A stretch of DNA of 64,000 nt from a virus (taxonomy: Duplodnaviria; Caudoviricetes), in the IMG/VR virus record IMGVR_UViG_3300042508_000526. One strand, given 5' to 3'. Position 1 is the first letter of the stretch; each line of letters begins with the position of its first letter. Made by a program: the position numbers and the translations under genes. The notes under the pieces are model-generated. The model searched no databases. It was not told where the DNA came from and saw nothing but the letters and a program-made list of their open reading frames with translations. This document shows, one piece after another, positions 54,463 through 62,689 of this stretch.

Positions 54463-54586
54463 GGCGAAGCTCGTATGTCAGGCGCTGCTGTTTCCCAAGC
54501 TGAATACGCTTATTGTGGCATATGAAACGTGGGAAGAAAAGGGCATGCTATACTGGCGCGCTGGGGAGTTACAAAAGGAGGCCGCC

Positions 54587-54916
54587 ATGCACGCGCTCAA
54601 GACGAGTTTTATTTCGCTGGCGTTGATTCTGTGGGCTGGGGAAGCCTACGCAGAAACCTTAGAGATGTTTTCGGCTGACTGGTGTAAATACTGTCAGCAG
54701 GCGAAAGCAGATTTACTGCCTGAAGATGCGCTGGTGGATAAATACCGGCTGGAAATCATCGACGTGGACCGGGCCAAGGAACTCGCCAAAGATAACAATA
54801 TCAAAACCCTGCCCACGTTTATCCTGCGCGATGACGAGGGGAAAGAAATTGCCCGCCAGACCGGATATCACGGCCTGCGAAAGTTTAAACGCTGGCTAGA
54901 AAATCACACCCGCTAA
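54587..54916 (+). CDS. exported thioredoxin-family protein
   Basis: signal peptide, WCKYC, LPTF cis-Pro motif; AGGAGG RBS; TGCTATACT -10 upstream. Confidence 0.85.
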   Translation: MHALKTSFISLALILWAGEAYAETLEMFSADWCKYCQQAKADLLPEDALVDKYRLEIIDVDRAKELAKDNNIKTLPTFILRDDEGKEIARQTGYHGLRKFKRWLENHTR

Positions 54917-54975
54917 AATGGCAGGCCGCAAAGCTTTGTGCCAATTAGGCAGTGCTGTCTTGGAGCGCTGATATC

Positions 54976-55005
54976 TAAAAAAAGAGGGTACGGTGTATAC
55001 CCTCT
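54976..55005 (-). terminator. intrinsic terminator closing ncRNA candidate 1
   Basis: AGAGGGTA/TACCCTCT stem + T tract, then AGATATCAG. Confidence 0.8.
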
Positions 55006-55580
55006 CCGCGTTAACGTACGCGTTCCACGGGCCTATCTCTGACTCATCGTCAGTTGGGACCACCCATGCGTTTTCTCTAGAGGTTCTGCACCTCTAGCTA
55101 CCGCTTGGACATTACATCCGCGCGCTTCTACCAGTGAGGTTGCCCATACCCAAACCTCACCAGTTCTAGCGGCACAACACGACGTGCATAACACTCGTGC
55201 CACACCCTGTGCTAGATTCGATTGGCCAACGCAAAACCGCATGGCTCTACACCGTAAGAAACGGAACAAGAAAAATTAGAAACCACCTGCTTTAGACTTT
55301 CTTGCGAAAGCTATCACATGGCGTTTCTCCCGATTGGAGCAGCGCGCCAATCACGCGTCACTGTGCGTAGTTGCAGAGTGAAAATAAGTGCGATGTAGAT
55401 TTCTCCGGCATTACGGAGACCGCTACAACACGGCTTGGTACTGCGACCAACTTTACTGCTGCACTGAACAGCGCTGTCTGTATGATTTCCTCGGGGATAT
55501 ACGAGGACCGCATACTCGGCCAAGCACTCCGGCTTGCTTTACCGTGGACAGGCATTGCACGATTGATAGGTATTCCCCAT
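54977..55580 (-). ncRNA. large structured ncRNA candidate 1 (~600 nt)
   Basis: lies exactly between promoter copy 3 and a terminator; no credible ORF; >10 hairpins, GCAA tetraloop, G-U pairs on minus strand, 5'/3' end pairings. Confidence 0.7.
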
Positions 55581-55614
55581 CACTAGATATACCCGGTTTT
55601 TGCCCGATATTTAG
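55581..55614 (-). promoter_or_regulatory. conserved phage promoter copy 3
   Basis: CTAAATATCGGGCAAAAACCGGGTATATCTAGTG. Confidence 0.75.
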
Positions 55615-55679
55615 CTGGGCCCTGATAGCTAAAGAAAGCTTGCGCTTTGCGGAGCCGTCGCCTCCGCTGCCGACATGCT

Positions 55680-56063
55680 TTAGCTCGCCGTGAGCCGCTC
55701 GAAGATCGCGAGGACCTCCGGCATCTTGGTGTTGACGATTTCCTTGATTTCGTCATTCACCGCGACTTGAATCGGACCGGCGTTCTCAACCCACTTCTGC
55801 CCGACACCGGCGGCGAAGAAGTCGGCCAGCGCGGCCATCTCTTCGTCGGTGAAGTTTTCACGCAGGTGGCGCGCCATTACGGGCGCGAACGTGTCGATCG
55901 TGAAGACCTCCAGAAAGGCGGCCTTCATTGACTCGACCATCTGGGCTGGCAACAAGCCATTGCCCATGTTTTCGATCATGTTCTTCACCATCGTGTCGAA
56001 CATGTCACCGGCACTGATCACCGCCAGAAGCCGATCAACCGACGTCGCAGTTTCCATCGTCAT
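55680..56063 (-). CDS. DUF2059-like helical protein
   Basis: FTDEEMAALADFFAAGVGQKW resembles the DUF2059 core. Confidence 0.65.
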   Translation of the reverse strand: MTMETATSVDRLLAVISAGDMFDTMVKNMIENMGNGLLPAQMVESMKAAFLEVFTIDTFAPVMARHLRENFTDEEMAALADFFAAGVGQKWVENAGPIQVAVNDEIKEIVNTKMPEVLAIFERLTAS

Positions 56064-56174
56064 TTCTCCGTGAAAGCAGGAGTAACCACAGCTTCAGCAT
56101 GCAACGCGCATGTGAACTCCAACCGGGTTACCGTGAGAGCGCCGCAGGGCAAGCCTACAGCATATCGACATCGC

Positions 56175-56396
56175 TCAGTTCCGGCCGTCCCACTCGAAGG
56201 TAGCTTCGAGCGGATTGGCTGCCGGACGAACCTTCCGCGGTTTGCGCGAAGGCTTGGGGGCTGGCTTGGACGCCGGTGGTGGCGGCGGCTCAGACCAGCG
56301 CTGCGCTAGATCCACATACTCGGAATACTGCTGAGACGCAGCACCAATCCAATAAAGAACCGCGCAGGCAACCACGATCCAGACGAACGCTGACAT
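56175..56396 (-). CDS. small membrane protein
   Basis: N-terminal TM helix, Pro/Lys-rich tail, AAGGTG RBS. Confidence 0.6.
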   Translation of the reverse strand: MSAFVWIVVACAVLYWIGAASQQYSEYVDLAQRWSEPPPPPASKPAPKPSRKPRKVRPAANPLEATFEWDGRN

Positions 56397-56470
56397 ATTT
56401 GCACCTTTCTCATGGGGTGTCCTTCATACAGGTTACTGGGGCGTAATATTTATGGCTTACGCCCATCGTT

Positions 56471-56504
56471 CACCTAATATGCCCGCGTTCTGGCGCAAAT
56501 TTAG
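56471..56504 (-). promoter_or_regulatory. conserved phage promoter copy 4
   Basis: CTAAATTTGCGCCAGAACGCGGGCATATTAGGTG. Confidence 0.7.
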
Positions 56505-56617
56505 AGCGTCAAAAAGATGATCAGGTCGAGGTCGTCTTCGTCCTCGTAGTCCCAATCTTCGCTCCCACGAGCGGAACGGGGCGGAATGGCGCAGGGCTGG
56601 CTCGTTGTCGCTGGCAT
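56501..56617 (-). CDS. 38-aa acidic peptide (not in ORF track)
   Basis: MPATTSQPCAIPPRSARGSEDWDYEDEDDLDLIIFLTL; GGAGG RBS; high GC3. Confidence 0.4.
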   Translation of the reverse strand: MPATTSQPCAIPPRSARGSEDWDYEDEDDLDLIIFLTL

Positions 56618-56688
56618 GGTCTAGCCTCCGGATTTAGATATTTGGACCGAAGGGCTATTTTACAAACCAGCCTGCTCCAGATTGTTAT

Positions 56689-56716
56689 CTAAATCGGCTA
56701 CAGGCACCGGCGATAT
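56689..56716 (+). promoter_or_regulatory. plus-strand copy of the promoter motif
   Basis: CTAAAT-CGGCTACAGGCACC-GGCGATAT, same spacing. Confidence 0.5.
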
Positions 56717-56722
56717 ACGCAA

Positions 56723-56807
56723 TTTGACGTAAGTGTTTGCAACACAAAGACTTACGTCAAAAAGGTATTCCGGTTTGACGTAACATGTTGCGGCACAAGG
56801 ACTTAGC
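56723..56807. repeat. two imperfect 34-bp direct repeats (51-bp period); the first is a 12-bp inverted repeat
   Basis: TTTGACGTAAGT-N15-ACTTACGTCAAA at 56723-56761; TTTGACGTAACATGTTGCGGCACAAGGACTTAGC at 56774-56807. Confidence 0.75.
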
Positions 56808-56817
56808 GCTAATAGCT

Positions 56818-56843
56818 AAAAAAAGCGGCGCCGAAGCCCGCTC
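56818..56843 (-). terminator. intrinsic terminator closing ncRNA candidate 2
   Basis: GAGCGGGC-TTCG-GCGCCGCT-TTTTT then AGCTATTAG. Confidence 0.75.
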
Positions 56844-57600
56844 GTGTCCGGTTTCATCACATGGTCGGATTCCACGCCACTGGGACAGACTAATGCGCTA
56901 GCCCGCCCGGTGGTGTTATATGCGCTTAAGGGCAACAGCAAGTAAGTGCGCAGTTACTTGTCGGCAGCAACGATGCGCATACCGCACCGCCTATGCTGTT
57001 GGGTCAGCCACTCACACCCATAGGGTCTTCTATGGGTGGAGCCTTTGAGGCCGCTGACCAGAACCTTCGCATTGCCGAAGCGAACGCGTCTAGGTTGTTA
57101 ACACAAGCAACGCCCACGGAGCAGGTACTACTACCCGCCTTGACCCCGTGATCCGTTTATTAGGCTACGTATACCATTGGGCTCAACTTATTAACGCTGA
57201 TCAGGCGTTAGTTTGTCGGGCTATTGATATACCGCAGGACTTTCACCTGCACCCCCCGCTCTCCTAAGTACTTTTTTATGAGCACAGTCGAGGAAGGAAC
57301 GCTCGTTTGCACACCATAGCACTCGCTTGTATGGCTTAACAGGGCGCTACCCCCGTGCAAACTCCATTGCCTTAACGCCTACCCCCACGAAATTCAACCA
57401 CCAAGGTTGCTCCCCATCCCTTGCGGAATGGGCCTCAGTGTGCGTGCACCCAGAGATTAGTTCATCTCACACGCTTCCGTAGGCGCTGCTTGTGTTAACA
57501 ACGCTAATAAATCCGACGCATTGCCATATTTCCACGTTACGCGTCGGACGTACATGGGGCCGGGCTTCGACCCCAGCGGACTGATGCTCACCCAGTTCGT
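56818..57600 (-). ncRNA. large structured ncRNA candidate 2 (~700-780 nt)
   Basis: ORF-free; 27-bp long-range helix 57476-57502/57094-57120; many nested hairpins; ends in UUCG terminator; 5' boundary uncertain. Confidence 0.7.
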
Positions 57601-57610
57601 GTAAAACTCC

Positions 57611-57802
57611 TTAGTTACGATTGACGTGAATGATAAACCCCTCGCCGAACGGTAGACGAAAAGCAGGGTCTGCAATAATCTTGCCATTGACCTCGACTCT
57701 TTCCTCGACGATTAGCCGCCGAGCAATGTGCTCGTCGACAGGCGTTTTGGAAAAAGGACCTACCTCGACCAGATAGTCTACGAGTGTTTGTTCTTTGGCC
57801 AT
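57611..57802 (-). CDS. stand-alone S4 RNA-binding domain protein
   Basis: ARRLIVEERVEVNGKIIADPAFRLPFGE = S4 signature; AGGAG RBS. Confidence 0.75.
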   Translation of the reverse strand: MAKEQTLVDYLVEVGPFSKTPVDEHIARRLIVEERVEVNGKIIADPAFRLPFGEGFIIHVNRN

Positions 57803-57845
57803 TTGAAACTCCTTGTGGTTGTTTAACTAACGTCCCAACCGTGCA

Positions 57846-57879
57846 CACAATATATGCCAGCATTTGACCGGTTATTTAG
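57846..57879 (-). promoter_or_regulatory. conserved phage promoter copy 5
   Basis: CTAAATAACCGGTCAAATGCTGGCATATATTGTG. Confidence 0.7.
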
Positions 57880-57882
57880 TTA

Positions 57883-58086
57883 TCAAACCAACCGGTCAAT
57901 TGCTGCCACAATTGCGGCCGAATACCGCAACCCGATATCTTCGGCCTCACTGCCCTCGCCGTACGCCTGCTGCAGTTCTTCCTGCATCTTGAGTACGGCG
58001 GCCCTCGTCTCAGCCAGCGTCCGGCGCATGTCCTTGAGCTGGATTTCCGGCGCTGTCTTGTACCGCAACCCCGCCTTCGTCGTCAC
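57883..58086 (-). CDS. hypothetical helical protein
   Basis: C-terminal part of track ORF 57883-58269; probable GTG start after AAGGAG; start uncertain. Confidence 0.5.
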   Translation of the reverse strand: MTTKAGLRYKTAPEIQLKDMRRTLAETRAAVLKMQEELQQAYGEGSEAEDIGLRYSAAIVAAIDRLV

Positions 58087-58321
58087 TTGCGGTTCCAAAT
58101 CGCTCTCCTTCTTTCTCACACAGGTCGTCCACCATTGGTTGTTCCAGTTCGTCGCCGCCTGATGCGTTGCCATGTTGCGTCTCTTCGAGGAAATAAAGAA
58201 TGTCGCTGATCGCGCCATCGACAGCACTGACCGCTTGTCGAATCTTGGTCTCAGCGACGCATAGTTCACGTTTTGTTTTAATCATCGTCTTCAGCGTGTC
58301 AACTAAAACTCGCCTTGTCAT
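58010..58321 (-). CDS. hypothetical protein
   Basis: helical N-terminus, acidic tail; overlaps next ORF, so boundaries uncertain. Confidence 0.45.
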   Translation of the reverse strand: MTRRVLVDTLKTMIKTKRELCVAETKIRQAVSAVDGAISDILYFLEETQHGNASGGDELEQPMVDDLCEKEGERFGTASDDEGGVAVQDSAGNPAQGHAPDAG

Positions 58322-58333
58322 GTGCACTTCTTT

Positions 58334-58618
58334 CTAGCGCAGAGCATCGAACGATTCTTGCAGGCCTACCGCGCGGTCGGCCAGAAACCGAGCCACGCGA
58401 TCCATCACGTCGATGATGCCTTGGTTTTTGTATACCCGCCGGGCCTCCGTCGGCGAGTACGCACCAAAGCACGTGACTTTCAGCAGTATGGGCGAGCCGC
58501 GGTCGGTCACCTCGACCTTTTCGATGTGACACATTTGGTCGCCCACGATGCCATCTTCCAGTGCGCGATTGCATGTATCGCGCAGCGCCTCAATGAACCA
58601 GCGCATGTTGTTGTCCAC
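58334..58618 (-). CDS. hypothetical protein
   Basis: 94 aa, AAGGAG RBS. Confidence 0.65.
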   Translation of the reverse strand: MDNNMRWFIEALRDTCNRALEDGIVGDQMCHIEKVEVTDRGSPILLKVTCFGAYSPTEARRVYKNQGIIDVMDRVARFLADRAVGLQESFDALR

Positions 58619-58633
58619 TTGCTACTCCTTTGG

Positions 58634-59047
58634 TTATTCGACCACCACGGACTTACCGGCGTACGAGATCTCCGCGAAGGGCGTGATCACAGCCGACAAA
58701 TCCTCGACCACAGCGCCATCCACCGCCACACGGCCCATCACGATCTCCCTGCGCGCGATGCTCGCCGGGATCTGATACGCGCGCGTCAACGCCTCCACGA
58801 GATACACCGCCGGATACGCCTCGGGCGGCTTTCCCAGCTGATCGTCCAAAAGGATCAGCGCCGCCTCGATCGAAAACTCGCCCGACACCGCCGCCTTATC
58901 AGGCGAAACCACACCGTGCAGGCTGCAGGCGTACGACCCGTTCTGCTGCAGAAATCGGATCAGGCTGCGGGCCGTTGTGCTATCAAAAGCCCGGCCCACC
59001 GCCTCGTTGTTGTACGTTCCGCCGATGCCATAGATCATCAGGTTCAT
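58634..59047 (-). CDS. protein with C-terminal S4 domain
   Basis: SIARREIVMGRVAVDGAVVEDLSAVITPFAEISYAGK = S4 signature. Confidence 0.7.
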   Translation of the reverse strand: MNLMIYGIGGTYNNEAVGRAFDSTTARSLIRFLQQNGSYACSLHGVVSPDKAAVSGEFSIEAALILLDDQLGKPPEAYPAVYLVEALTRAYQIPASIARREIVMGRVAVDGAVVEDLSAVITPFAEISYAGKSVVVE

Positions 59048-59051
59048 GATA

Positions 59052-59708
59052 TTAATCCCAGAGGCCCTCAAAGTACTTACCAAAGAGCAAGAGTCCACGA
59101 GACTTCCTGCTCTGCCACTCCATGTGGCCGTCCCTGTCGTACCCACCGCGGCGCATCGCGTCCTGAAACGAAAGCCCCGGTTCAGTCCGCGGTTTCGCCG
59201 GGTCCAGATCGTAATGAAACTTGTCTTCGGCGTTCGGGTCGACCATCTGCTCAAACGCCCAGATCATTTCATTCATCACCCAGTCCCACCGCTTGTGGGT
59301 GTTATCATCCGAGTACCCCATGTTCTGCTGTTCGGCAGTCAGGGGCGGCGCATTAACACTCTTCAGCTCGTCTGGTACGTCTTCGTCTTCCACGTGCGGC
59401 GAGCCGTGCTTGGTCTCTTTCAGCTGCTTGAGCATGGGCAGGACAATAAGCGCGAGCGTATCGTCCATGCCCCACGTGTCGTACGCGTCAATGCGAATCT
59501 TGACCTTGCGTGGCCAGCGGTGATTGATCCAGTTCTCCAACCGGTTTAAATAATAAAACCGCTTGAACACCCACGAATCGATCTGCTCCTGCTTGTCGTA
59601 CTCTTCTTCGTTGCGGGCGTTATACACGCCGTACCAGCGCTGGACGGCCCGCTTGAGCCACGTGTACGGCCGAAACCAGTGATCGTACGGGCCGATGTAA
59701 ACCTTCAT
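59052..59708 (-). CDS. conserved phage hypothetical protein
   Basis: MKVYIGPY; IRIDAYDTWGMDDTLALIVLPMLKQLK; WDWVMNEMIWAFE; GLLLFGKYFEGLWD. Confidence 0.8.
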   Translation of the reverse strand: MKVYIGPYDHWFRPYTWLKRAVQRWYGVYNARNEEEYDKQEQIDSWVFKRFYYLNRLENWINHRWPRKVKIRIDAYDTWGMDDTLALIVLPMLKQLKETKHGSPHVEDEDVPDELKSVNAPPLTAEQQNMGYSDDNTHKRWDWVMNEMIWAFEQMVDPNAEDKFHYDLDPAKPRTEPGLSFQDAMRRGGYDRDGHMEWQSRKSRGLLLFGKYFEGLWD

Positions 59709-60013
59709 CGCTTCCTCCGTGAAAGAAACCGGGGCCATTGGTGCCGACAATATGGGCACTGCCAGTAGCTTACGCCGTCGTAATGCTCTGGATGATCATG
59801 CGGCAGCTCAACACCCACGATCCGGCTGAACCGGTATGGCGGGCTGTAATGATCTTCGATGTACTTCTGCAGTTCCTCGTCGGACTTGTCGGCGCACCAA
59901 TCCTGCGTCCGTAACACGTCGAAGATCGCGCCGCCATCCCAGCTGGCATTGCAGCTAGGGCAGCGACCGTGATGATCCAGCTCTATCGGCTTGTCGTCCT
60001 TAGAAACTTTCAT
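59705..60013 (-). CDS. Cys-rich (Zn-binding) phage protein
   Basis: CPSC...YDGVSYWQCPYC. Confidence 0.7.
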   Translation of the reverse strand: MKVSKDDKPIELDHHGRCPSCNASWDGGAIFDVLRTQDWCADKSDEELQKYIEDHYSPPYRFSRIVGVELPHDHPEHYDGVSYWQCPYCRHQWPRFLSRRKR

Positions 60014-60264
60014 ACGGGCAACTCTTCTTTCGCTGGGAGTAAGCAGTACCGATCCTTGTACGGGAACACGCCGAGTGACCTCCCGTTATCCCATCGCACG
60101 CTTATCTGATGCCACTCCGGTGGACCCTCGAAGTTAACGTGCACAATCGTGCCTTCAAGCCCGGCCGGCATATCTTTCTCCACGGGCATCCATGTGGAGC
60201 CGGGATTGACCATCTGAGACAGCAACCGAATCCGCAAACCAACCGCAGGCGCAAGCGACGCCAT
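60010..60264 (-). CDS. DUF4314-like SH3-fold protein
   Basis: GLRIRLL..PAGLEGTIVHV..QISVRWDNGRSLGV. Confidence 0.7.
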   Translation of the reverse strand: MASLAPAVGLRIRLLSQMVNPGSTWMPVEKDMPAGLEGTIVHVNFEGPPEWHQISVRWDNGRSLGVFPYKDRYCLLPAKEELPV

Positions 60265-60470
60265 TAGAAACCCTCCGGAAAGACACGAACACTTCCTGCG
60301 TTCTGCCGAAACGCAGCGATCATGGGCTTGTAGACCGACTCGCACAGCCCGTGCTGCGCGCAGAGGTCTTCGGCCCAACCCATCCCCATCCAGACGACAT
60401 CCTCGCTCGCCGTCAGGCTAGCGAGGCCGACGAGCATGCACATCAGCGTTTCAACCACATCATTGCTCAC
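60264..60470 (-). CDS. hypothetical protein
   Basis: C-terminal part of track ORF 60264-60743; probable GTG start overlapping upstream stop. Confidence 0.4.
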   Translation of the reverse strand: MSNDVVETLMCMLVGLASLTASEDVVWMGMGWAEDLCAQHGLCESVYKPMIAAFRQNAGSVRVFPEGF

Positions 60471-60747
60471 GTAGGATGCGTGCTCGATCCCGGTTGAAGA
60501 GCGGACTGCAGCAACCCGCGCCGAAAGCTGGTTCAATTTCCCAGCCTTTTTGGGATGTAATGTGATCATAGATCCCGCAGAAGTATCGGGGCTGTTTTCC
60601 ATCGTCTTGTTGAACCTCCACAAGATGTTTACACGCTGCATCAGCCGCGCTGACGCTCTCACCAAAGCTGCAAGGCCGCCGCTTGCAGCAAAAACCAGAA
60701 TGCACACACGGCACAGCGCCGGGGTACAGCGGCAAAGGGGCAACCAT
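60460..60747 (-). CDS. Cys-rich YkgJ-like Fe/Zn-chelating protein
   Basis: CVHSGFCC..PC..CKHL..CGIYD..GAGCC. Confidence 0.65.
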   Translation of the reverse strand: MVAPLPLYPGAVPCVHSGFCCKRRPCSFGESVSAADAACKHLVEVQQDDGKQPRYFCGIYDHITSQKGWEIEPAFGAGCCSPLFNRDRARILREQ

Positions 60748-60794
60748 CAGATGCTCCTTCGTGGTTAAGAACGCTAATGGCACAGCGCCAATAG

Positions 60795-61140
60795 CAAAGA
60801 AAAACCGGGCGGGTCGATTTACGCGTTCCCAACCCTATAACCCAAGACGAGCTGCAGCTCTTCTTGGAACCCCTCCACGCCGGAGTCGCCGCCACGATAT
60901 TCACCGCAACGGTTCCGGAAGGTAAGGAGTACCCGGTTTACAACGGCGCGCTCAGGTATGCTAGCTGGCGCTGGATACAGGACTTTGGGATCGCGCATAC
61001 CATTCCACCCTAGTTTCCTGCACCCCCGTTGTTGGCTTAGACCCGGCTGTTAATTCAGCGCTCTTACCCGATGAGGGATAAGATACGACCGCCATGTCGT
61101 AGCGTTAATTCGCGCCGCTACCCGATGAAGGATAGCTCCG
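60795..61140 (-). ncRNA. structured ncRNA candidate 3 directly downstream of tmRNA
   Basis: tandem double-hairpin repeats with compensatory changes, crossing helices, terminal T tract. Confidence 0.55.
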
Positions 61141-61146
61141 GGCGAG

Positions 61147-61494
61147 TGGAGCCGGCGGGAATCGAACCCGCGTCCAGAGATGTCTCCAATAAAGACGTCT
61201 ACATGCGTAGGTTGTTGCTACTTGCGCTACAACCAAAGCCAGCCGATTATCGGCGTCAGGTGGGTTACCACCATCTTTGCGTGTCTTTCCACGCCGCCTG
61301 CTGTCTTCCCAGCGGCCAACCTGATTGGGCGATGAGGCTCAGGTCGCCTCACCCGATCACTGCGTCAAGCAGCGAGAGCGGGAGCGCTGTTGAGGGCGCC
61401 AACTAACAATGTGGGCGATTTTTAACGTGGCCCTTCGTCCAACCACGGCATGCAGTCTAGATCTTCCTCATCCTGTCGAAACCAGTACGGCCCC
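61147..61494 (-). ncRNA. ssrA: tmRNA (standard one-piece); tag (A)GALNSAPALAA*
   Basis: 5' GGGGCCGTACTGGTTTCGAC; 3' GCGGGTTCGATTCCCGC-CGGCTCCA with G3-U70; tag ORF 61400-61365 after TAGTT. Confidence 0.93.
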
Positions 61495-61500
61495 TAAATT

Positions 61501-61689
61501 TCACGCAACTGCGCTGGGCAGTGGCGTTACTTCGTAGGCGCGGCCATAAAAATAGCCGTGCCAAAAGTCGTCAACGTGTTTGTCTTGCAACAGCGCATTC
61601 TGATCCGCAACTGTTGCAGCCTCTTCCTTGTTTAGTTTCAACACGCGGCAGTTGTTGCCGAGAGTTTCCGCATACACAAGCGGTGTCAT
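61501..61689 (-). CDS. small hypothetical protein
   Basis: 62 aa, AAGGG RBS. Confidence 0.55.
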   Translation of the reverse strand: MTPLVYAETLGNNCRVLKLNKEEAATVADQNALLQDKHVDDFWHGYFYGRAYEVTPLPSAVA

Positions 61690-61775
61690 TTCGTTTCCCT
61701 TTTGTGAAAAATGAAACCAGCACGGCCACAATTGTATTAGAAACTCACCGCAAAACGTTGAGTTTCCAATATGAA

Positions 61776-61849
61776 TAACCCGGGTGGGAGTCGAACCCAC
61801 AACAAGTAGATCCTAAGTCTACCGCCTCTGCCAATTGGGCTACCGAGTC
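61776..61849 (-). tRNA. tRNA-Leu(UAG) with short variable loop; no CCA
   Basis: GACTCGG/CCGGGTT acceptor, GTAGA-CTTAGGA-TCTAC anticodon arm, 5-nt variable region, GTGGG-TTCGACT-CCCAC. Confidence 0.85.
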
Positions 61850-61922
61850 ATTAAATGTGGCTGGTTGAGAAGGCAACCATTTAACCAAGCCCAACACCTT
61901 GCGAATGCGTTGGCACCACACA

Positions 61923-61994
61923 TGACCCCACGGGGATTCGAACCCCGATTATCGCCGTGAAAGGGCGGTGTCCTAACCATTAGACGATGGGGCC
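61923..61994 (-). tRNA. tRNA-Glu(UUC); no CCA
   Basis: GGCCCCA/TGGGGTC acceptor, CTTTCAC loop, CGGGG-TTCGAAT-CCCCG. Confidence 0.92.
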
Positions 61995-61998
61995 GCGG

Positions 61999-62160
61999 TC
62001 AGGCAAGTCCAACATACTCTGCTTTGCGCCAGAAGTACATTGGCATGCCGATTTGCATATGCCCGTCGCGGACGCGTGTATCCAGCGGGGCATTGTTCGA
62101 ATTTGCCCACGCAATGATACTCGTCACCGCATCGTCGCTCTGCACTGTTCTGTAAAGCAT
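61999..62160 (-). CDS. 53-aa hypothetical protein (not in ORF track)
   Basis: MLYRTVQSDDAVTSIIAWANSNNAPLDTRVRDGHMQIGMPMYFWRKAEYVGLA; GGAG 7 nt upstream. Confidence 0.55.
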   Translation of the reverse strand: MLYRTVQSDDAVTSIIAWANSNNAPLDTRVRDGHMQIGMPMYFWRKAEYVGLA

Positions 62161-62196
62161 TGGTACACTCCATTGTTATCAGAACACAAATCACAG

Positions 62197-62267
62197 TAGC
62201 CCGCCGAGGAGTCGAACCCCGCGTTGCGAGTTAATAAGACTCGCTTGCCAACCGGTTTCCGCGGGCC
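62197..62267 (-). tRNA. atypical tRNA, anticodon UAU (Ile), degenerate D arm
   Basis: GGCCCGC/GCGGGCT acceptor, CGAGT-CTTATTA-ACTCG, CGGGG-TTCGACT-CCTCG; no recognisable D stem, U at 37. Confidence 0.6.
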
Positions 62268-62353
62268 GGAACGAGCGGGTGCCGGAAGCTTGGGCTTCTC
62301 CCGGCACCCGCCCTACCAGACGCGACGCGCTTTAGCGTTTCGCGGCCAGTGTG

Positions 62354-62689
62354 CTATCGGTAGCGCTTGCAGGCGAACCAGCGGCCATTTGAGCCGCGTG
62401 CTACGCCTTGGTCAACTACCCGCATACCAGACCGAGAAAAGCAACAGTTACCCAACGCGGCTTCGGGAGTGCTCCCGCTGCCGACGCCTTCGTAACCGCT
62501 GTTGCCGCCGAAGTGGCGGCACTGCCCGCATCGAGCCTGCATCTCCGCAACGCCCTGCGCAGTCGCGTTGGTAGGCTGATAGTATCGCATCGGTTGATGC
62601 GACGTGTAGCTCTCGATGATGACAGGTCCGTCAGCGCAGGCAATCCCAGCAAGCACTGACAGCACAGAAAAAACACAGACGCGAATCAT
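62354..62689 (-). CDS. exported CAP/SCP-like Cys-rich protein
   Basis: signal peptide; HFGG..YEGVGSG...CC...GVARGSNGRWFAC resembles truncated CAP proteins. Confidence 0.6.
   Translation of the reverse strand: MIRVCVFSVLSVLAGIACADGPVIIESYTSHQPMRYYQPTNATAQGVAEMQARCGQCRHFGGNSGYEGVGSGSTPEAALGNCCFSRSGMRVVDQGVARGSNGRWFACKRYR

What the first reader, a model, noticed from the sequence alone, without database searches (positions are those of the whole stretch)
56818..57879. Operon of a stand-alone S4 RNA-binding protein followed by a ~700-780-nt ornate RNA: candidate novel ribonucleoprotein
Seen: promoter copy 5, then a 63-aa S4-only ORF, then a long ORF-free region, then a UUCG terminator. The RNA has a 27-bp closing helix and TTTGCAC/GTGCAAA. 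It also has GCAGG-TGAAAGT-CCTGC, TAACGC/GCGTTA, CTTCG/CGAAG, and a 3-way junction GGTCAGC/GCTGACC with CACCCATAG/CTATGGGTG. CAACAGCA/TGCTGTTG encloses GCGGTGCG/CGCATCGT (two G-U) and CAAGTAA/TTACTTG. The latter's loop TGCGC is complementary to the downstream GCGCA loop (kissing loop). Established: S4 domains bind structured RNA, and large ncRNAs such as OLE work with small partner proteins. Inference: a co-transcribed RNA-protein system that I do not recognise as described.
Basis: partly seen in the sequence, partly recalled or inferred. Interest (0 to 1): 0.88.

Follow-up and report, generated by a model that had tools for sequence, protein, structure and literature searches.

The report
New structured phage RNA, not S4-bound
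Behind a small S4-domain gene this lake phage carries a real, expressed, about 400-base folded RNA of a family not in Rfam, but related phages keep the RNA without any S4 gene, so the proposed S4-RNA particle is unlikely.

Summary
The S4 ORF (57802-57611, minus strand), the ORF-free stretch, the listed helices and the terminator are all present. The "700-780-nt RNA" is a composite.

- **57600-57544:** a start-less remnant of a neighbouring protein gene.
- **57500-57096:** a conserved RNA core closed by a 25-27-bp helix.
- **57095-56843:** a 3' tail (3-way junction, "kissing loops") with no homologue anywhere.

The core defines a family of 12 distinct sequences, mostly from about 200-kb uncultured freshwater phages. 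In the consensus fold, 45 of 118 pairs show compensatory changes, against 5-11 in slid controls. Wobble pairs are strand-specific. No Rfam family matches at E<=10.

Four lake metatranscriptome runs from three studies hold exact contigs of 57113-57479 only.

In eight relatives the RNA has its own sigma-70-type promoter and terminator and no adjacent S4 gene. Three near-complete RNA-bearing genomes have no detectable S4 domain, and two S4-bearing relatives show no RNA. In this phage the adjacency comes from a rearrangement.

A 95-aa "NWNNQWW" protein gene co-occurs with the RNA far better than S4 does.

Verdict: a new, autonomous, large structured phage RNA of unknown function. The S4 ribonucleoprotein reading is not supported.

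The parts
57883..58173 (-). Gene for a 96-aa 'NWNNQWW' protein with no known family. It is the gene that co-occurs with the RNA in relatives.
   Evidence: ORF. It has no Pfam, NCBIfam or PHROG match. Homologues lie directly upstream of the RNA in all main-group loci and in L140/L141, and none is found in the 78 RNA-less relatives. The predicted fold is a beta-hairpin plus a helical hairpin with no significant structural match.
57850..57899 (-). Palindromic promoter-like motif overlapping the end of the NWNNQWW gene (TTGACC...GGTCAAA, then ...CATATAT). It sits where relatives have the RNA's sigma-70-type promoter.
   Evidence: Searches find two copies in the window, more than chance. Alignment to L059. 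No sigma-70 match by the scan.
57611..57802 (-). Stand-alone S4-domain protein, 63 aa.
   Evidence: Pfam PF01479 at 28 bits, E 1.8e-6. It is 86% identical to the S4 protein of L004. Its weak best PDB sequence matches are ribosomal uS4 proteins.
57544..57600 (-). Remnant of the first 19 codons of the 95-110-aa gene that normally follows S4. ACG stands in place of the ATG start.
   Evidence: tblastn and BLASTP show 72-78% identity over 18 residues. DNA colinearity with L004 and L128 is shown.
57506..57547 (-). A 42-nt block (7-bp hairpin, then AUUUAUU) identical between this phage and L128. It lies where the main group has its promoter. It may be a weak promoter or a 5' element.
   Evidence: Its function is inferred.
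57096..57500 (-). Conserved RNA core, about 405 nt. The closing helix pairs 57500-57476 with 57120-57096 and encloses a multi-helix domain.
   Evidence: nhmmer homology in 12 distinct sequences. RNAalifold gives 118 pairs, 45 of them compensatory. Fold z is -8.2. No Rfam match.
57113..57479 (-). The part recovered as contigs from freshwater metatranscriptomes. It may be the mature RNA.
   Evidence: One search shows exact contigs at 57113-57389, 57391-57478, 57161-57459 and 57229-57473. Contig ends cluster at 57477-57479 and 57113-57115 in two studies. Nothing else in 8 kb is covered except conserved tRNA and tmRNA pieces.
57234..57250 (-). Nearly invariant hairpin GCAGG-UGAAAGU-CCUGC (5-bp stem, 7-nt loop with U1 and A5, T-loop-like).
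   Evidence: Nearly invariant in A5. The same hairpin occurs in a separate small tRNA-like motif.
56843..57095 (-).
   Evidence: No homologue by blastn, tblastx or nhmmer. Fold z is -3.2. Relatives have a different tail of about 90-110 nt.
56818..56843 (-). Intrinsic terminator: a C(UUCG)G hairpin plus U7, followed by AGCUAU as in relatives.
   Evidence: Sequence. Terminators of relatives end in the same T-run plus AGCTAT. The end motif recurs elsewhere in the genome.

Best explanation
The locus holds an autonomous gene for a new, large, highly structured non-coding RNA. The core is about 405 nt, and about 370 nt is seen as RNA. The family is shared by a clade of about 200-kb freshwater phages.

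Shown:
- The core fold is kept by compensatory evolution on the minus strand.
- The RNA is present in environmental RNA libraries while its flanks are not.
- In relatives it has its own strong sigma-70-type promoter and an intrinsic terminator.

Inferred:
- The primary transcript runs from the upstream promoter, through S4 in this phage, to the terminator at 56818.
- The 25-27-bp perfect duplex that joins the two ends serves as a processing stem of the RNase III or rRNA type. It releases a compact core from the S4 mRNA and from the variable 3' tail.
- The core then acts in trans through its three-dimensional fold (T-loop-like hairpin, GNRA-type loop, multi-way junctions). It would work as a scaffold or decoy linked to the phage's tRNA/tmRNA island, in the manner of other large phage RNAs such as GOLLD and ROOL.

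The S4 gene is a lineage-specific neighbour brought in by rearrangement, not a dedicated partner.
For: **Family and structure**
- There are 11 full-length distinct sequences plus one partial.
- Of 118 consensus pairs, 45 carry double compensatory changes, and 94.8% of cells are paired. Slid controls give 5-11 compensatory pairs and 36-43% paired.
- In the closing helix 16 of 25 pairs covary. Departures from Watson-Crick pairing are G-U on this strand only, apart from one A-C and one G-G in single sequences.

**Expression**
- Exact RNA contigs cover 57113-57479 in three runs, and diverged variants appear in others.
- The other 7.6 kb laid have no cover, so DNA carry-over does not explain it.

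**Own gene in relatives**
- L077 has TTGACA-16-TAGAAT (11 of 12 matches) just before the helix and a 12-bp terminator after it.
- L114 has the same arrangement.

**Not S4-dependent:**

**Rearrangement origin of the adjacency:**

**tRNA/tmRNA island:** it lies 2.4-3.7 kb upstream on the same strand in the window, L097, L112 and L121.

**Not a known family:**. There is also no match in 50,697 GenBank phage records.
Against: - The function is not shown by anything here.
- The processing step rests only on contig ends, which are a weak hint. Low-depth contigs lose transcript ends, and the two ends are not the 2-nt stagger expected of a single RNase III cut.
- All members come from one phage clade. 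The compensatory changes are therefore few independent events, spread over three subgroups.
- In this phage no good promoter was found for the RNA itself. S4 and the RNA are therefore probably co-transcribed, which leaves room for an interaction.
- Five of eight well-covered RNA-bearing phages do carry an S4 gene within about 1.5 kb.
Confidence: 0.72

Rival explanations
1. One reading: the 63-aa S4 protein and the RNA form a dedicated, co-transcribed ribonucleoprotein.
For: S4 domains bind structured RNA (established knowledge). The ORF is intact and has a good ribosome-binding site. In this phage it lies between the conserved promoter position and the RNA. S4 genes sit about 1.3-1.8 kb upstream of the RNA in L059, L077, L097 and L102.
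Against: - There is no S4 gene next to the RNA in any relative.
- No S4 domain is found in three RNA-bearing genomes that are 95-98% complete. The same search worked on five positive records.
- S4 occurs without the RNA in L004 and L006.
- A truncated fragment of the neighbouring gene was carried along with S4.
Confidence: 0.1
2. The RNA works with the co-inherited 95-aa NWNNQWW protein as a two-part module (a different ribonucleoprotein).
For: - The protein gene lies directly upstream of the RNA in all nine main-group sequences and in L140/L141. Those two loci were reached through the protein alone.
- Its stop codon overlaps the RNA promoter.
- Neither the gene nor the RNA is present in 78 related loci that share the neighbouring 218-aa gene.
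- A 66-kb contig with a 74%-identical protein has about 1.1 kb after it with no forward-strand gene call.
Against: - All cases belong to one clade, so the adjacency may be plain synteny.
- L128/L131 carry the RNA without this gene on their 3-5-kb contigs.
- The protein has no recognisable RNA-binding fold or family.
Confidence: 0.25
3. A purely cis-acting transcript element. The long stem and hairpins would only process, stabilise or terminate the polycistronic mRNA, with no trans-acting RNA product.
For: A long duplex suited to RNase III is present. Several terminator-like hairpins follow it. In L128 the next gene starts about 90 nt after the stem.
Against: - About 350 nt of conserved, covarying, multi-helix interior is far more than a processing site needs.
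- Relatives have a dedicated promoter and terminator with no ORF between them.
- The interior is what accumulates in RNA libraries.
Confidence: 0.08
4. A DNA-level element: a miniature mobile element with terminal inverted repeats, a replication origin, or decayed pseudogenes.
For: There is a 27-bp terminal inverted repeat. Presence among related phages is patchy. A gene remnant lies next to it.
Against: - It is single-copy in the genome.
- It always sits in the same gene cluster, and no target duplication is seen.
- Mismatches in the repeat are G-U on one strand only.
- It is present as RNA.
- Insertions and deletions are not multiples of three, and no ORF is conserved.
Confidence: 0.04

Closest known systems
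GOLLD and ROOL RNAs (large ornate RNAs of phages and prophages)
   Same: This RNA is phage-encoded, several hundred nucleotides long and densely structured. It is independently transcribed, lies near a tRNA island and has no known protein partner. The tRNA-island association, the unknown function and the homo-oligomeric cages of GOLLD and ROOL are stated in bioRxiv 10.1101/2024.12.08.627333.
   Different: It does not match their covariance models or any other Rfam model. It is shorter, at about 400 nt against about 600-800. It is closed by a 25-27-bp duplex. It is known only from one clade of freshwater phages. Self-assembly has not been tested.
OLE RNA with its Oap proteins (large RNA working with small partner proteins)
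   Same: It is a large structured RNA encoded next to small proteins that might bind it.
   Different: OLE partners are conserved neighbours, whereas here S4 is not. There is no Rfam match. The only consistently linked protein is the uncharacterised NWNNQWW protein.
Precursor processing stems of 16S/23S rRNA and RNase III sites of phage early transcripts (own knowledge)
   Same: A long, near-perfect duplex formed by sequences flanking a structured RNA. The RNA contigs lack most of the duplex.
   Different: Cleavage has not been shown. The observed contig ends are not a clean 2-nt stagger. The enclosed RNA is not ribosomal.
Bacterial Y RNAs (YrlA) bound by Rsr/Ro60 (own knowledge)
   Same: A long terminal stem plus an internal module with a tRNA T-arm-like hairpin.
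   Different: There is no Rfam match. The phage genome has no TROVE/Rsr gene and no RtcB gene. This RNA is 2-4 times larger. Loop positions 2-3 are GA, not the canonical UC of a T-loop.

Membership tests
   Pfam PF01479, 28 bits, above the 22.8-bit cut-off.
   In nine main-group sequences the RNA directly follows the NWNNQWW gene. In L128 it follows the 110-aa gene.
   Three RNA-bearing genomes that are 95-98% complete have no PF01479 match, while five other RNA-bearing records do. S4 occurs without the RNA in L004 and L006.
   This needs EMSA or CLIP.
Any described RNA family (Rfam 15: GOLLD, ROOL, OLE, raiA, HEARO, RNase P, tmRNA, 6S, SRP, Y RNA, introns, riboswitches) | Match to the family's covariance model | tested here: not met
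   No match at E<=10 on the window stretch or on the L059 homologue. No gathering-level match appears at the RNA in any of the 19 loci scanned, several of which carry it.
Large ornate phage RNAs (GOLLD/ROOL kind) | Phage-encoded, near a tRNA island, independently transcribed, with extensive covarying structure | tested here: met
   The tRNA and tmRNA genes lie 2.4-3.7 kb upstream. Relatives have their own promoter and terminator. Forty-five pairs covary.
Large ornate phage RNAs (GOLLD/ROOL kind) | Protein-free homo-oligomeric assembly | not testable with these tools
   This needs cryo-EM or light scattering on the transcribed RNA.
RNase III-processed RNA | An uninterrupted duplex of 20 bp or more joining the 5' and 3' flanks | tested here: met
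   The duplex is 25-27 bp and 99% of cells are paired across the family.
RNase III-processed RNA | Mature ends lie inside the duplex | tested here: inconclusive
   Contig ends at 57477-57479 and 57113-57115 recur in two studies. Contigs cannot fix RNA ends.
Y RNA / Ro60 system | An rsr (TROVE) gene in the genome | tested here: not met
   No PF05731 match in the complete phage genome. A host copy cannot be excluded.
Intron or miniature mobile element | Flanking exons or target duplications, or several copies per genome | tested here: not met
   It is single-copy. In relatives it lies between a stop codon with promoter and a terminator. There is no intron model match.

The most novel reading that the evidence does not exclude
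The roughly 370-nt core is a new class of large functional RNA. It could be a ribozyme, a self-assembling RNA or a binder of tRNA elbows. It would act with the co-inherited NWNNQWW protein on the host or phage translation or tRNA machinery. Its T-arm-like hairpin would link it by descent or by a shared partner to a second undescribed family of small tRNA-like RNAs in unrelated phages.
Probability: 0.2. Interest if true: 0.85.

Novelty: new variant of a known kind. Interest (0 to 1): 0.6.

Why it matters
Bacterial and phage RNAs above about 350 nt with dense conserved structure are few. The ones understood so far are ribozymes, ribonucleoprotein scaffolds or self-assembling cages. This one is abundant or stable enough to be assembled from lake metatranscriptomes when none of its neighbours is. 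It comes from phages found in many lake data sets (24 runs, 22 studies). It now has a defined core, a consensus fold, a promoter and terminator, and a candidate partner gene. In vitro folding, cryo-EM and binding tests can therefore be set up directly. The work also removes a tempting but unsupported S4 ribonucleoprotein story.

Tried and rejected
- **Intron idea.** I considered that the core interrupts the 95-aa gene. A weak C-terminal resemblance lay after the 3' arm. I rejected it because in relatives the same helix arm lies in non-coding DNA after a stop codon and promoter.
- **Near-identical contigs.** L008-L016 are 99.9-100% identical over the region and give no covariation.
- **Exact-pattern scans.** Window-specific 19-24-mers found nothing in viral contigs. 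The S4 protein gave no viral locus.
- **Parts without RNA cover.** In one search the S4 gene, the 3' tail and this phage's own tmRNA have no cover. I do not use that as evidence that they are untranscribed.
- **NWNNQWW protein.** The model had pLDDT 75.7. Foldseek against PDB and the AlphaFold clusters gave nothing below E 0.4. Pfam, NCBIfam and PHROGs gave nothing.
- **Y RNA idea.** The genome has no TROVE or RtcB gene.
- **RNase P idea.** It was prompted by GAAAGUCC. There is no model match, and the motif is a local hairpin rather than a P4 strand.
- **Literature.** I found no description of this RNA. The supplement of the 10,006 viral candidate RNAs (PMC10690425) is not held, so overlap with that list could not be checked.
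- **Models not built.** I did not build a full-length covariance model because it lies at the size limit for calibration. I did not use the count of structure pairs because it needs a typed 424-character structure string. My own script replaced it.
- **'Promoter copy 5'.** A TAAA-N15-...CATAT pattern matched only once in the window.

Full report
**Setting**

The window lies in a complete 203,206-bp virus record with direct terminal repeats. All genes around the finding are on the minus strand. A tmRNA gene (61494-61144) and three tRNA genes lie 3.6-6 kb upstream on the same strand. The same DNA occurs in lake-water metagenomes from 22 studies.

**What is in the sequence**

- The 63-aa ORF at 57802-57611 carries a Pfam S4 domain (28 bits, E 1.8e-6). 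It has the usual ARRxIVxxRVxVNG core.
- A second, weaker S4 domain ends a 137-aa ORF at 59047-58634.
- Downstream of S4 no minus-strand ORF exceeds 52 aa until the terminator at 56843-56818.
- The 27-nt inverted repeat has arms 57094-57120 and 57476-57502. Its two mismatches are G-U on the minus strand and would be A-C on the plus strand.
- Folding energies are far below shuffles. The 813-nt stretch gives z -5.7, the 412-nt core z -8.2 and the 286-nt tail z -3.2.
- No Rfam family matches the stretch even at E<=10.

**The stretch is a composite**

The closest diverged relative of the S4 protein is in L004/L005, at 86% identity. There S4 is followed at once by a 95-aa gene and a sugar-kinase-like gene, with no RNA.

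- The first 19 codons of that 95-aa gene are recognisable in the window at 57600-57544, with 72-78% identity. ACG stands where the relatives have ATG.
- Homology then stops. A 42-nt block begins (57547-57506) that is identical in another contig, L128.
- So the first 65 nt or so of the "RNA" are a gene remnant. S4 and this remnant were joined to the RNA by a rearrangement.

**A conserved RNA family**

I fetched 80 loci through the neighbouring 218-aa gene. Only two of them (L059, L077) held DNA similar to the stretch. The similarity covered exactly the part bounded by the long helix.

- Conserved blocks from that three-way alignment then retrieved more members from viral contigs, metagenomes and one MAG contig.
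- Two further short contigs were reached through a neighbouring protein.
- In all there are 11 full-length distinct sequences and one partial, in three subgroups: the window, L128/L131 (about 90% identical to the window core), and a main group of nine.
- Most lie on contigs of 194-205 kb.
- None of the members matches any Rfam family. GenBank phage records hold nothing similar.

**Structure**

- RNAalifold on the 11-sequence alignment gives 118 pairs. Of these, 45 keep pairing through changes on both sides.
- In my own count 94.8% of sequence-pair cells are standard pairs. Sliding the 3' partner by 1-3 columns drops this to 36-43%, and the compensatory pairs to 5-11.
- The closing helix (window 57500-57476 with 57120-57096) has 16 covarying pairs of 25.
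- Its departures from Watson-Crick pairing are G-U on this strand, apart from one A-C and one G-G in single sequences. This points to selection on the RNA rather than on a DNA palindrome.
- Inside are two 5' hairpins and a long-range helix enclosing a multi-way junction.
- Also inside are a nearly invariant hairpin GCAGG-UGAAAGN-CCUGC (57250-57234), a strongly covarying variable hairpin (57212-57190) and a 3' hairpin capped GUGA in most members.
- CTTCG/CGAAG, the 3-way junction, CAACAGCA/TGCTGTTG and the "kissing loop" lie in the tail.

**The tail**

Positions 57095-56843 have no homologue in any relative or elsewhere in the genome. Main-group members instead have a tail of about 90-110 nt with two hairpins and a strong terminator. 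L128 runs into the next gene about 90 nt after the helix. The window's terminator shares the T-run plus AGCTAT ending with the relatives. The tail is therefore probably transcribed, but nothing supports a conserved function for it.

**Expression**

I laid four freshwater metatranscriptome runs from three studies on 8 kb (54500-62500).

- They cover only 57113-57479, apart from short conserved pieces of tRNA and tmRNA that carry mismatches.
- Several contigs are exact: 57113-57389, 57391-57478, 57161-57459 and 57229-57473. Others differ at 8-13 positions and so come from other family members.
- The silent flanks argue against DNA carry-over.
- Contig ends recur at 57477-57479 and at 57113-57115 in two studies, without loose ends. 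This is a weak hint that the mature RNA lacks most of the closing duplex.

**An autonomous gene in relatives**

- In L077 a sigma-70-type promoter (TTGACA, 16 nt, TAGAAT; 11 of 12 matches) ends 6 nt or so before the helix. A 12-bp terminator with T8 follows about 90 nt after it.
- L114 is built the same way.
- The -35 box overlaps the stop codon of the upstream gene.
- The window keeps the matching TTGACC motif at the end of that gene (57899-57894). S4 and the gene remnant are inserted between that motif and the RNA.

**S4 is not the partner**

- No relative has S4 next to the RNA.
- A search of whole records with PF01479 found S4 in the window genome (two copies) and in four RNA-bearing relatives.
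- It found none in three RNA-bearing genomes that are 95-98% complete.
- S4 occurs without the RNA in L004 and L006.

**A better-linked gene**

- The 95-aa NWNNQWW protein gene (window 58173-57883) lies directly upstream of the RNA in every main-group locus and in L140/L141.
- It is absent from the 78 RNA-less loci that share the 218-aa gene.
- L128/L131 are exceptions, on short contigs.
- The protein has no family and no structural match.
- This link may be plain synteny within one clade.

**Reading**

The best-supported account is an autonomous, stable, highly folded trans-acting phage RNA. It is released from a longer transcript at a processing stem, sits near the tRNA/tmRNA island, and resembles GOLLD and ROOL in kind but is unrelated to them in sequence (for their properties). 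Its function remains open. The S4 ribonucleoprotein model gets about one chance in ten.

First-stage notes of this scan had independently flagged RNAs of about 350-430 nt closed by a 24-27-bp stem in other genomes. Those stretches share short sequence words with the L059 family member. This agrees with the family found here.

Noticed in passing
L105:4110-4303(-), L116:1396-1589(+), L118:2750-2943(-), L120:11230-11423(-), L115:844-1021(-), L101:3344-3537(+): A separate motif of about 130-150 nt occurs mostly in phage contigs of about 35 kb. It has a 7-bp closing stem, a conserved AGAGCGCC...AUUUUGC segment, and the same hairpin GCAGG-UGAAAGN-CCUGC directly before the 3' strand of the stem. The stem is often followed by ACCA and then a ribosome-binding site. 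It looks tRNA-derived or riboswitch-like. It has no Rfam match and no ARAGORN call.
   Followed up: partly
L113:2322-2410(-): An atypical tRNA-like gene sits inside a phage tRNA array. It has acceptor, D, anticodon and T arms, but its T-loop reads UGAAAGG and its D-loop lacks GG. Neither ARAGORN nor Rfam calls it.
   Followed up: partly
window 58010-58327(-) and 57883-58173(-): Two ORFs overlap by 164 nt in different frames, and both are conserved in relatives. The same DNA reads DELEQPMV in one frame and NWNNQWW in the other. They may be overlapping genes or a +1 frameshift product.
   Followed up: no
L006:3851-4120(+): In this relative the S4 protein is 89 aa long. It continues in frame into the HWV..SP motif that begins the separate downstream gene in other phages. 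This looks like a gene fusion or split.
   Followed up: no
window 56713-56760 and 57850-57899: A palindromic TTGAC...GTCAAAT motif followed by ...TATAT occurs after the RNA terminator and before S4. Related elements occur in relatives. It may be a phage-specific promoter or operator.
   Followed up: partly
window 58634-59047(-): A 137-aa protein has a C-terminal S4 domain with a faint likeness to the N-terminal S4 domain of RsuA (16.5 bits). It sits where relatives have their only S4 gene.
   Followed up: no
window 61144-61494(-): A phage-encoded tmRNA (Rfam 130 bits) that ARAGORN did not report.
   Followed up: no
window 57138-57269 (run X19, record 2): A metatranscriptome contig matches the core with 13 differences and then continues into unrelated sequence beyond 57138. 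It is a further family member with a different 3' part.
   Followed up: no
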